This document shows, piece by piece, positions 7,708 through 7,895 of a DNA stretch of 9,244 bases (positions are counted from its first letter, which is position 1; each line of letters starts with the position of its first letter). The notes beneath the pieces were generated by a model that worked only from the letters and a program-made list of their open reading frames with translations, was not told the origin of the DNA and did no database searches. The position numbers and the translations under genes were made by a program. Origin of the DNA: a virus (lineage: Duplodnaviria > Heunggongvirae > Uroviricota > Caudoviricetes); IMG/VR virus record IMGVR_UViG_2778261537_000007. One strand, given 5' to 3'.

Positions 7708-7893
7708 ATGCTAATAGGCTATGTACGCATATAGACAAATGAACAAAACACAGCTATGCAGTGAAAAGCACTTGAAAGCGCAGGATGTGAGCTAATTTTT
7801 GCGAATAAGGCGAGCAGCAAAAAAGCTGGGCACCCTGGGTTAAAAAAGGTTCTGCGTATGCTTTCCAGAGGTGATACCCTAGTCTCGGACTAG
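7708..7893 (+). pseudogene. decayed 5' fragment of a second Cin-like serine invertase gene
   Basis: Plus-strand translation from ATG 7708 reads MLIGYVRI*TNEQNTAMQ*KALESAGCELIFANKASSKKAGHPGLKKVLRMLSRGDTLV, about 60% identical to the N-terminus of the intact invertase in this window. In-frame stops at 7732-7734 (TAG), 7762-7764 (TGA) and 7891-7893 (TAG). Similarity ends at 7884; the catalytic Ser position is a stop. Confidence 0.7.
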
Positions 7894-7895
7894 GG
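7877..7895. repeat. perfect 8-bp inverted repeat at the truncation point of the invertase pseudogene
   Basis: CCCTAGTC (7877-7884), TCG, GACTAGGG (7888-7895). The left arm is the last homologous codons (T-L-V) of the invertase fragment; the right arm is their reverse complement. Confidence 0.5.

What the first reader, a model, noticed from the sequence alone, without database searches (positions are those of the whole stretch)
7708..7895. Relic of a second Cin-like invertase gene, convergent with the intact invertase
The plus strand encodes the first ~59 codons of an invertase that is clearly related to, but distinct from, the intact minus-strand invertase (about 60% identity, with an identical DNA stretch gcaggatgtga). 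It is interrupted by TAG and TGA stops, one at the catalytic-Ser position, and then loses homology abruptly. The two invertase genes point toward each other. This suggests the native invertase of a P1-like backbone was destroyed and functionally replaced by an incoming invertase plus cassette module. The 5' region of gin/cin/hin genes is where the Fis-dependent recombinational enhancer lies, so the relic might still supply enhancer function in cis.
Basis: partly seen in the sequence, partly recalled or inferred. Interest (0 to 1): 0.6.

Follow-up and report, generated by a model that had tools for sequence, protein, structure and literature searches.

The report
Dead cin invertase stub (p15B ψcin)
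This is a real but dead leftover of the phage P1 cin invertase gene, left behind when a P1-like phage-plasmid swapped its tail-fibre switching module for a different one; the same leftover was described in plasmid p15B decades ago, so it is ordinary.

Summary
Window 7708-7884 (+) is the first 177 nt of a cin-type DNA invertase gene. It is 157/177 nt identical to P1 cin and about 66% identical to the intact convergent invertase at 8016-8588 (-). It carries TAG at the catalytic Ser9 codon and TGA at codon 19. Homology to P1 ends abruptly at 7884.

The window is a p15B-type P1-like phage-plasmid. Its geometry and its identities to P1 reproduce the notes on p15B (X62121) written in the P1 RefSeq record. 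The relic therefore corresponds to what I recall Sandmeier et al. (1991) naming 'ψcin'; that paper was not readable here.

A complete relative shows that P1 homology resumes about 6 kb further on, in the tail-fibre gene S. So cin's 3' two-thirds and the C segment were replaced by a min/pin-type invertase plus multi-segment cassettes.

The same stub, with the same stops, occurs in 147 PLSDB plasmids and 23 IMG/VR contigs. Other P1-like plasmids carry cin stubs of other lengths (about 50, 212 and 307 nt).

The suggestion that the relic still supplies enhancer function is not supported. Fis site II is intact. Fis site I carries three changes, including an A at position -4, a known negative determinant. 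Min has its own intact enhancer. Already known; low interest.

The parts
7708..7884 (+). ψcin: the first 177 nt (59 codons) of a cin-type serine invertase gene. It is inactivated by TAG at 7732-7734 (the catalytic Ser9 codon), by TGA at 7762-7764 (codon 19), and by truncation.
   Evidence: It is 157/177 nt identical to P1 cin. The Pfam Resolvase match covers positions 2-68 of 145, E 2.8e-9. Differences from P1 by codon position are 5:4:11, giving 10 amino-acid changes from 20 nt changes; min versus cin gives 13 from 49. The same stub is present in 23 IMG/VR contigs and 147 plasmids.
7619..7707 (+). Remnant of the cin promoter and leader. The predicted P1cin -35 is kept (TTTCCA, 7638-7643). The predicted -10 is changed from TAAAAT to TAAAAC (7664-7669).
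   Evidence: The promoters are those predicted in the P1 record, read against the P1 sequence and alignment A1. Window 7619-7880 is 89.7% identical to P1 31570-31832 with 1 gap.
7726..7797 (+). Homologue of the Cin recombinational enhancer (P1 31678-31749). The inferred Fis site I core is 7730-7744, TATAGACAAATGAAC, and is damaged. The Fis site II core is 7778-7792, GCGCAGGATGTGAGC, and is identical to P1.
   Evidence: The enhancer feature is annotated in the P1 record. The alignment of seven invertase 5' ends is. The Fis rules come from PMC4784862. The placement of the two cores is my inference from motif fit and 48-bp spacing.
7876..7894 (.). Junction between native cin DNA and incoming DNA (breakpoint 7884/7885). 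It is straddled by an 8-bp palindrome, CCCTAGTC-TCG-GACTAGGG.
   Evidence: The breakpoint is shown. The RNA fold gives z = -2.5. The right arm is polymorphic, A/G at 7889, 12:12 among 24 copies.
7885..8015 (.). Spacer belonging to the incoming module, that is, the 3' flank of min.
   Evidence: There is no P1 homology here. Window 7897-8060 is 85% identical to the equivalent flank in plasmid pEc-050-T5-MAC_3. From about 7948 it is 74-76% identical to chromosomal P2-like prophage invertase loci.
8016..8588 (-). Intact min-type DNA invertase of 190 aa, with the homologous start ATG at 8588. Its own enhancer homologue lies at 8499-8570.
   Evidence: Pfam gives Resolvase (E 2e-51) plus HTH_7 (E 3e-15). 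Over the first ~180 aligned nt it is 81.7% nt identical to e14 pin and 72% to P1 cin. The match to the enhancer-bearing P1 segment 31684-31754 is at window 8494-8564.
8641..8668 (.). The first clear cix/mix-type crossover site next to the min 5' end (…CTAAAACG TT GGTTTAGGGGAA). Further CGTTGG-centred site-like sequences lie at 8611-8640, 8671-8700 and 9163-9186.
   Evidence: Repeat families D3 and D5, and comparison with P1 cixL in alignment A3.

Best explanation
The feature is a non-functional scar, the 'ψcin' pseudogene of p15B-type P1-like phage-plasmids.

Origin. An ancestral P1-like element carried lydC, then cin pointing rightwards, then cixL, the C segment and gene S. Recombination with a P2/e14-like tail-fibre module replaced everything from cin nt 178 to the middle of S. 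The incoming module consists of a min/pin-type invertase in the opposite orientation, its 3' flank, and a multi-site invertible cassette region. What was left is the cin promoter region and the first 59 codons.

Decay. These leftovers have since decayed:
- two stop codons;
- 10 amino-acid replacements;
- the T of the predicted -10 hexamer lost;
- Fis site I of the internal enhancer damaged.

Current state. The stub makes no protein; its open frame is 8 codons. Most probably it does not act as an enhancer. Inversion in this element is run by Min using the enhancer inside min itself.

Shown here: homology, breakpoints, stops, the population distribution and the module replacement. Inferred: loss of enhancer and promoter activity.
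For: 1. Identity with p15B. Window segments reproduce the identities and spacing that the P1 RefSeq record gives for p15B X62121: 89.7% with 1 gap, 84.4% with 0 gaps and 99.8% with 0 gaps. The mapping is window coordinate = 15027 minus p15B coordinate.
2. Native origin of the stub. Continuous colinear homology with P1 lydA-lydC-cin runs up to 7884.
3. Replacement. In the complete plasmid pLAO48, P1 homology resumes about 6.2 kb later at P1 37110, at 97% identity. The invertase in between is 69% identical to cin and inverted. The P1 record states that p15B nt 1-1712 equals P1 37152-38867.
4. Decay. There are stops at codons 9 and 19, and the nonsynonymous load is raised.
5. Enhancer. Site I has an A at -4, where cin, min, pin and gin all have C. 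An A at +/-4 is a negative determinant for Fis (PMC4784862). Min's own enhancer homologue is intact.
6. Scar behaviour. Other P1-like plasmids have independent cin stubs ending at about nt 50, 212-217 and 307, with different inactivating lesions. Some have no invertase downstream at all.
7. Annotation. PGAP annotates the equivalent in pEc-050-T5-MAC_3 as a frameshifted, incomplete recombinase pseudogene.
Against: - A 31-nt block containing Fis site II (CTTGAAAGCGCAGGATGTGAGCTAATTTTTG) is invariant in three independent stubs and in P1.
- No polymorphism was seen in 7708-7818 among 24 copies.

Both points could hint at residual constraint. They are equally explained by that block having been the most conserved part of functional invertase genes before inactivation, and by the very low overall diversity of the lineage (at least 98.6% identity). 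Loss of Fis binding and of enhancer and promoter activity was not measured here.
Confidence: 0.9

Rival explanations
1. The relic still works as a Fis-dependent recombinational enhancer in cis for Min-mediated inversion.
For: The enhancer homologue lies wholly inside the stub (7726-7797). Fis site II is identical to the P1 site, and the spacing between the two sites is unchanged. No polymorphism was seen in this stretch among 24 copies.
Against: Fis site I carries three substitutions relative to all four functional genes compared. One of them is A at -4, a negative determinant. Seven further changes lie between the two sites. Min has its own intact enhancer about 100 bp from the nearest crossover site, so a second one is not needed. 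The 212-nt stubs in other plasmids persist with no invertase at all, and the roughly 50-nt stub, also with no invertase annotated beside it, keeps only site I. So stub retention does not depend on enhancer use. From memory: the p15B ψcin enhancer was reported inactive unless two nucleotides were changed (Sandmeier et al. 1991, NAR 19:5831).
Confidence: 0.05
2. The stub has a regulatory afterlife. Either the remnant cin promoter drives a transcript across ψcin into the 3' end of the convergent min gene, giving antisense or transcriptional-interference control of inversion frequency. Or the lone Fis site II and the junction hairpin modulate local transcription.
For: The -35 hexamer and the overall promoter region are 90% conserved with P1. 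The layout is convergent, with only 131 nt between the stub and the min stop codon. A hairpin lies at 7876-7894 (z = -2.5), and its A/G polymorphism keeps U-A or U-G pairing in RNA.
Against: The predicted -10 has lost its final T (TAAAAC). The promoter scan found nothing in 7500-8700. The hairpin has no U-tract. There is no Rfam match. The stub in pEc-050 has a largely unalignable upstream region and a different junction. No expression data are available.
Confidence: 0.04
3. The stops and the truncation are sequencing or assembly artefacts, and the gene is really intact.
For: None found.
Against: The identical TAG and the identical breakpoint occur in 23 independent IMG/VR contigs. The 416-nt stretch 7600-8015, which includes the stub, is at least 98.6% identical in 147 PLSDB plasmids, and the junction-spacer stretch 7870-8060 is at least 80% covered in 171 complete E. 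coli genomes. The missing 384 nt of cin are nowhere downstream.
Confidence: 0.005

Closest known systems
ψcin of plasmid p15B (E. coli 15T-; GenBank X62121; Sandmeier, Iida, Hübner, Hiestand-Nauer and Arber 1991, Nucleic Acids Res 19:5831, cited from memory)
   Same: The position is the same: between lydC and the 3' end of min, convergent with min. The extent is the same: P1 homology ends at P1 31832-31836. Identity to P1 is the same (89%, 1 gap), and so is the spacing to the min enhancer (614 nt). As I recall, that paper describes a truncated 5' region of an invertase gene highly homologous to cin, with an inactive enhancer that two nucleotide substitutions reactivate. That fits the TAG (P1: TCA) lesion inside Fis site I seen here.
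   Different: No difference was detected. The X62121 sequence itself could not be fetched, so base-for-base identity is inferred from matching statistics and geometry, not from a direct alignment.
cin of bacteriophage P1 (NC_005856, 31660-32220) with its internal enhancer (31678-31749)
   Same: It is the orthologous locus: same left neighbours (lydA, lydC), same promoter region, and 88.7% nt identity over cin nt 1-177.
   Different: P1 cin is a complete 186-aa gene ending in cixL and pointing into the C segment. The window copy stops at nt 177, has two stop codons, a damaged Fis site I and an altered -10.
Other cin stubs in P1-like plasmids: pEc-050-T5-MAC_3 (NZ_CP086503), pRHB14-C15_4 (CP057815), A1_181 p_unnamed2 (NZ_CP040069)
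   Same: They sit at the same locus and have the same kind of scar: the cin 5' end is kept and the rest is replaced by another tail-fibre module. pEc-050 also has the same min-type invertase in convergent orientation.
   Different: The breakpoints differ (about nt 307, 212 and 50) and so do the lesions (a 2-nt frameshift with Ser9 intact; a 12-nt deletion). The last two have no invertase downstream.
pin of the e14 element and min of p15B (the Din family of invertases)
   Same: The intact convergent gene at 8016-8588 belongs here. It is 81.7% nt identical to e14 pin over the first ~180 aligned nt, and it has Resolvase plus HTH_7 domains.
   Different: This concerns the partner gene, not the relic. 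The relic is cin-like (88.7%), not pin- or min-like (65-66%).

Membership tests
Functional Din-family serine DNA invertase gene (Hin/Gin/Cin/Pin/Min) | Complete N-terminal resolvase catalytic domain (about 135 aa) | tested here: not met
   Only Pfam Resolvase positions 2-68 of 145 are present. cin homology ends at nt 177 of 561.
Functional Din-family serine DNA invertase gene (Hin/Gin/Cin/Pin/Min) | Catalytic serine (Ser9 in Cin) encoded | tested here: not met
   Codon 9 is TAG at 7732-7734, where P1 has TCA. TAG is present in all 23 IMG/VR copies.
Functional Din-family serine DNA invertase gene (Hin/Gin/Cin/Pin/Min) | C-terminal HTH_7 DNA-binding domain and an uninterrupted reading frame | tested here: not met
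   No HTH_7 domain is present. The open frame is 8 codons, and a second stop lies at codon 19.
Orthologue (remnant) of P1 cin | Sequence identity to cin higher than to other family members, and conserved left-hand synteny (lydA-lydC-promoter-cin) | tested here: met
   In the seven-sequence alignment (first ~180 columns) the relic is 87.2% identical to P1 cin, against 62-66% to min, pin and gin; the direct pairwise figure for cin is 88.7%. The colinear match covers window 7250-7884 against P1 31191-31836.
p15B ψcin | Same location, extent and geometry as p15B X62121 nt about 7147-7320, next to min | tested here: met
   Identities and gap counts to three P1 segments, and all inter-segment distances, equal those the P1 record gives for p15B. 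A direct alignment with X62121 was not possible.
Fis-dependent recombinational enhancer (sis) of DNA invertase systems | Lies in the first ~100 nt of the invertase gene, with two Fis sites whose centres are 48 bp apart | tested here: met
   The homologue of P1 31678-31749 is at 7726-7797. The inferred cores at 7730-7744 and 7778-7792 are 48 bp apart centre to centre. The placement of the cores is my inference.
Fis-dependent recombinational enhancer (sis) of DNA invertase systems | Both Fis sites compatible with Fis binding rules | tested here: not met
   Site II is identical to P1. Site I is TATAGACAAATGAAC, with A at -4 where the functional genes have C. An A at +/-4 is a negative determinant (PMC4784862).
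Fis-dependent recombinational enhancer (sis) of DNA invertase systems | Binds Fis and stimulates inversion in cis | not testable with these tools
   This needs a gel shift, a footprint or an inversion assay. From memory, the p15B ψcin enhancer was reported inactive (Sandmeier et al. 1991).

The most novel reading that the evidence does not exclude
The cin 5' stub is not purely neutral debris. The invariant 31-nt block around Fis site II (7771-7801, unchanged in three independently truncated stubs and in P1), together with the remnant promoter, might be retained because Fis binding or plus-strand transcription there tunes expression of the convergent min gene or of the divergent lydC lysis gene. 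On that reading, module swaps that remove this block would be counter-selected.
Probability: 0.06. Interest if true: 0.35.

Novelty: already known. Interest (0 to 1): 0.12.

Why it matters
The relic is a clean molecular fossil of a module exchange in the P1 phage-plasmid family: the host-range switching cassette and its recombinase were swapped as a unit. It shows where the left recombination junction fell.

Practically, it explains an unannotated 300-bp gap in more than a hundred P1-like plasmid records, and it warns annotators that the invertase-like start here is a pseudogene.

The survey adds a small point. Cin stubs of at least four different lengths exist in P1-like plasmids, so the tail-fibre and invertase module has been replaced repeatedly, with breakpoints inside cin. 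None of this changes current understanding of DNA invertases or of Fis enhancers.

Tried and rejected
1. Primary papers. I tried to read Sandmeier 1991 and 1992, Lobocka 2004, the Johnson 2015 review and Stella 2010 by PMID, PMC id or DOI. None is held. A full-text search for 'psi cin' found nothing. The ψcin citation therefore rests on my memory plus the p15B notes in the P1 record.

2. Flanking direct repeat as crossover sites. The 19-nt direct repeat that flanks the promoter and relic (7607-7624 and 7896-7914) resembles the outer arm of the mix site at 9175-9186. I considered that the two copies are quasi crossover sites and that the stub is bounded by invertase sites. I rejected this as a firm claim. 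Both copies lack the central CGTTGG core that all four site-like sequences share. The repeat is only moderately unlikely by chance (2 of 2000 shuffles). The upstream copy differs in P1 and in the other stubs.

3. Junction palindrome as a terminator. The palindrome at 7876-7894 has no U-tract, was not picked up by the terminator scan, and its right arm is polymorphic.

4. Promoter scan. It returned no sites at all in 7500-8700, not even for min, so it is uninformative.

5. Rfam. No match.

6. Test for selection on the stub from polymorphism. The p15B-type copies are too similar: 6 variable sites in the relic against 4 in the spacer. No conclusion is possible.

7. Whether the 177-nt stub derives from a longer pEc-050-like stub by secondary deletion. 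The 28-34 nt next to the junctions are only about 59% alike. This stays undecided.

Full report
**What is there.** The window is part of a P1-like (Punavirus) phage-plasmid. On the minus strand it carries ddrB, ddrA, darA, hdf, lydB, lydA and lydC (601-7580). From 7708 the plus strand reads MLIGYVRI*TNEQNTAMQ*KALESAGCELIFANKASSKKAGHPGLKKVLRMLSRGDTLV.
- These 177 nt are 157/177 (88.7%) identical to the first 177 nt of P1 cin.
- They are 65.6% identical to the 5' end of the intact invertase encoded on the minus strand at 8016-8588.
- With the stops masked, the translation still passes the Pfam Resolvase threshold, covering positions 2-68 of 145, E 2.8e-9.
- TAG at 7732-7734 replaces the TCA of the catalytic Ser9. 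TGA at 7762-7764 replaces CGA of codon 19.
- Homology to cin ends after 7884.
- The region upstream (7619-7707), which holds the predicted cin promoters and leader in P1, is also conserved.

The true end of the relic is 7884, not 7895.

**Identity with p15B.** The P1 RefSeq record carries notes on homology to plasmid p15B (X62121):

| P1 segment | p15B segment | Identity stated in the P1 record |
|---|---|---|
| 31570-31832 | 7147-7408 | 89%, 1 gap |
| 31346-31499 | 7483-7638 | 84%, 0 gaps |
| 30674-31240 | 7728-8294 | 99%, 0 gaps |
| 31684-31754 | 6463-6533 (inside min) | 83% |

Aligning the same P1 segments to the window gives 89.7% with 1 gap, 84.4% with 0 gaps and 99.8% with 0 gaps. All inter-segment distances match, so that window coordinate = 15027 minus p15B coordinate. 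The window is thus a p15B-type element, and the relic corresponds to p15B nt about 7147-7320.

From memory, Sandmeier et al. (Nucleic Acids Res 1991, 19:5831) described exactly this next to min. They reported a truncated 5' region of an invertase gene, named ψcin, highly homologous to P1 cin. Its enhancer segment was inactive but could be activated by substituting two nucleotides. I could not read that paper here, so this statement is recollection and not a tool result.

**Module replacement.** In a complete p15B-type plasmid (pLAO48, 99.9% identical to the window over 7250-8700), colinear homology with P1 stops at the equivalent of window 7884 (P1 31836). It resumes about 6.2 kb later at P1 37110, inside the constant part of tail-fibre gene S, at 97% identity. 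The P1 record likewise equates p15B nt 1-1712 with P1 37152-38867.

The intervening DNA holds the min-type invertase and several tail-fibre C-terminal cassettes with tail-fibre assembly genes. That invertase has these properties:
- it is 69% identical to cin and inverted relative to it;
- it is 81.7% identical to e14 pin over the first ~180 aligned nt;
- it has Resolvase plus HTH_7 domains.

Four CGTTGG-centred, cix-like sites lie just beyond the min 5' end inside the window.

So the native cin 3' two-thirds, cixL, the C segment and part of S were replaced by a pin/min-type module. The convergent orientation follows from the layout of the two systems. cin points into its invertible segment, whereas min, like gin and pin, points away from it.

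**Distribution.**
- The 416-nt stretch 7600-8015 is present at 98.6% identity or more in 147 PLSDB plasmids, mostly E. coli IncY, with some Salmonella and Klebsiella.
- The junction-spacer stretch 7870-8060 is at least 80% covered in 171 of 5426 complete E. coli genomes.
- An IMG/VR scan with a 28-mer from the conserved cin block returned 80 loci. Of these, 46 have an intact 186-aa cin and 23 have the 177-nt stub. All 23 carry the TAG, and 21 also show a convergent invertase; the other two are L065, whose contig ends inside min, and L056 (see 'Minor things seen'). A further 8 have stubs ending at cin nt 212-217 with no invertase downstream.
- P1, P7, D6 and SJ46 have intact cin at this position.

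**Other stubs.**
- Plasmid pEc-050-T5-MAC_3 has a longer stub, to cin nt about 307. Ser9 is intact, but a 2-nt deletion shifts the frame. It is followed by the same min-type invertase in convergent orientation. PGAP annotates the stub as a frameshifted, incomplete recombinase pseudogene.
- pRHB14-C15_4 has a roughly 212-nt stub followed directly by a tail-fibre assembly gene.
- A1_181 p_unnamed2 keeps only about 50 nt.

The two stubs compared are each closer to P1 cin (87% and 85%) than to each other (78%), as expected for independent decay. Recurrent stubs with different ends and different lesions are what scars of repeated module swaps look like. A natural reading is that breakpoints further left would hit the lydC-cin intergenic region and lydC itself.

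**Does the relic still work?**

*Protein:* no. The open frame is 8 codons. The 20 nt differences from P1 give 10 amino-acid changes, with codon positions 5:4:11. The two functional genes min and cin differ by 13 amino-acid changes from 49 nt differences, with codon positions 11:7:31. This indicates relaxed constraint on the relic.

*Promoter:* the predicted P1cin -35 is kept, but the predicted -10 TAAAAT has become TAAAAC.

*Enhancer:* the P1 enhancer (31678-31749) maps to 7726-7797. Using motif fit and the 48-bp spacing, I place Fis core II at 7778-7792 and Fis core I at 7730-7744.
- Core II is GCGCAGGATGTGAGC, identical to P1.
- Core I reads T(A/G)TCAACAAATGA(A/C)C in cin, min, pin and gin.
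- In the relic, core I reads TATAGACAAATGAAC. A further G-to-A change lies just outside it at -8.
- The C-to-A change puts an adenine at -4. Hancock et al. (PMC4784862) list adenines at +/-4 among the negative determinants of Fis binding, because the complementary thymine methyl clashes with Asn84.
- The two changed bases of the TAG codon lie in this site. That fits my recollection that two substitutions reactivate the p15B ψcin enhancer.
- Seven more changes lie between the two sites. According to PMC3798978, the sequence there has only a modest (2.5- to 5-fold) effect.
- Min has its own unblemished enhancer homologue at 8499-8570, about 100 bp from the nearest crossover site.

The suggestion that the relic supplies enhancer function is therefore not supported. 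It has not been disproved by experiment here.

**Residual doubts.** A 31-nt block around Fis site II is invariant in three independent stubs and in P1. No polymorphism occurs in 7708-7818 among 24 p15B-type copies. That block is also the most conserved part of functional invertase genes. In addition, the lineage as a whole has almost no diversity: there are 6 variable sites in the relic and 4 in the adjacent spacer. So this is weak evidence. I give about 5% each to a residual enhancer role and to a regulatory-transcript role.

**Minor things seen.**
- A 19-nt direct repeat brackets the promoter plus stub (7607-7624 and 7896-7914; 2 of 2000 shuffles reach its score).
- An 8-bp palindrome straddles the junction (7876-7894).
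- One IMG/VR contig has a deletion from inside min to a mix site, so that both invertases are dead.
- min alleles among p15B-type elements are mosaic.

**Verdict.** The origin story is supported. The enhancer idea is not supported. The feature is the long-known ψcin of p15B, so it is already known and of low interest.

Noticed in passing
window 7607-7624 and 7896-7914: A 19-nt direct repeat, ACAACATTT(C)GAGAAC(G/A)GT, brackets the cin promoter plus the ψcin stub. It is unique in the window, and only 2 of 2000 shuffles reach its score. Its right part resembles the outer arm of the mix-like site at 9175-9186 but lacks the CGTTGG core. The upstream copy is less similar in P1 and in the other stubs.
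   Followed up: partly
window 7876-7894: A perfect 8-bp palindrome, CCCTAGTC-TCG-GACTAGGG, lies exactly across the cin/non-cin junction. Its left arm is cin DNA. Position 7889 is A or G in 12 copies each among 24, which keeps U-A or U-G pairing in a plus-strand RNA. There is no U-tract, and the fold z-score is -2.5.
   Followed up: partly
L003 (NZ_CP086503.1) 4688-5120; L007 (CP057815.1) ~3090-3310; L008 (NZ_CP040069.1) ~3090-3140; IMG/VR loci L016, L022, L037, L049, L052, L077, L080: Independent cin 5' stubs of other lengths (about 307, 212-217 and 50 nt) occur in other P1-like plasmids, with different lesions. The 212-nt class is followed directly by tail-fibre genes with no invertase. This suggests repeated replacement of the tail-fibre and invertase module, with left breakpoints inside cin.
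   Followed up: partly
L056 (IMGVR_UViG_3300030379_000127) 4757-4761, equivalent to window 8246-8651: A p15B-type contig in which the sequence jumps from inside min (window 8245) to the mix site at 8652. This removes the min 5' half, its enhancer and its promoter, so both invertases are dead. It could be an invertase-mediated deletion at a quasi-site or an assembly artefact.
   Followed up: no
window 8611-8700 and 9163-9186: There are four crossover-site-like sequences centred on CGTTGG: three tandemly packed within 90 bp next to the min start and one at the end of a tail-fibre C-terminal ORF. This fits the multi-site Min system. Only part of the invertible region is inside the window.
   Followed up: partly
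window 8016-8588 versus L003 5121-5693, and IMG/VR p15B-type loci: The first 186 nt of min are 100% identical between the window and pEc-050-T5-MAC_3, whereas the adjacent 3' flank is only 85% identical. Among the 24 p15B-type copies, four to six carry a different 5' portion of min and one carries a strongly diverged allele. The invertase gene itself is therefore mosaic and recombining.
   Followed up: no
window 8588-8597; L002 (ON470615.2) 6765-7336: The mechanical ORF list starts min at a TTG (8597), but the homologous start is the ATG at 8588 (MQIGY...). In the phage record vB_EcoM-673R5 the same invertase is annotated as two pieces, 'Hin1' and 'Hin2', which points to a frameshift or a sequencing error in that record. 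The ψcin stub is unannotated in the p15B-type plasmid records seen.
   Followed up: no
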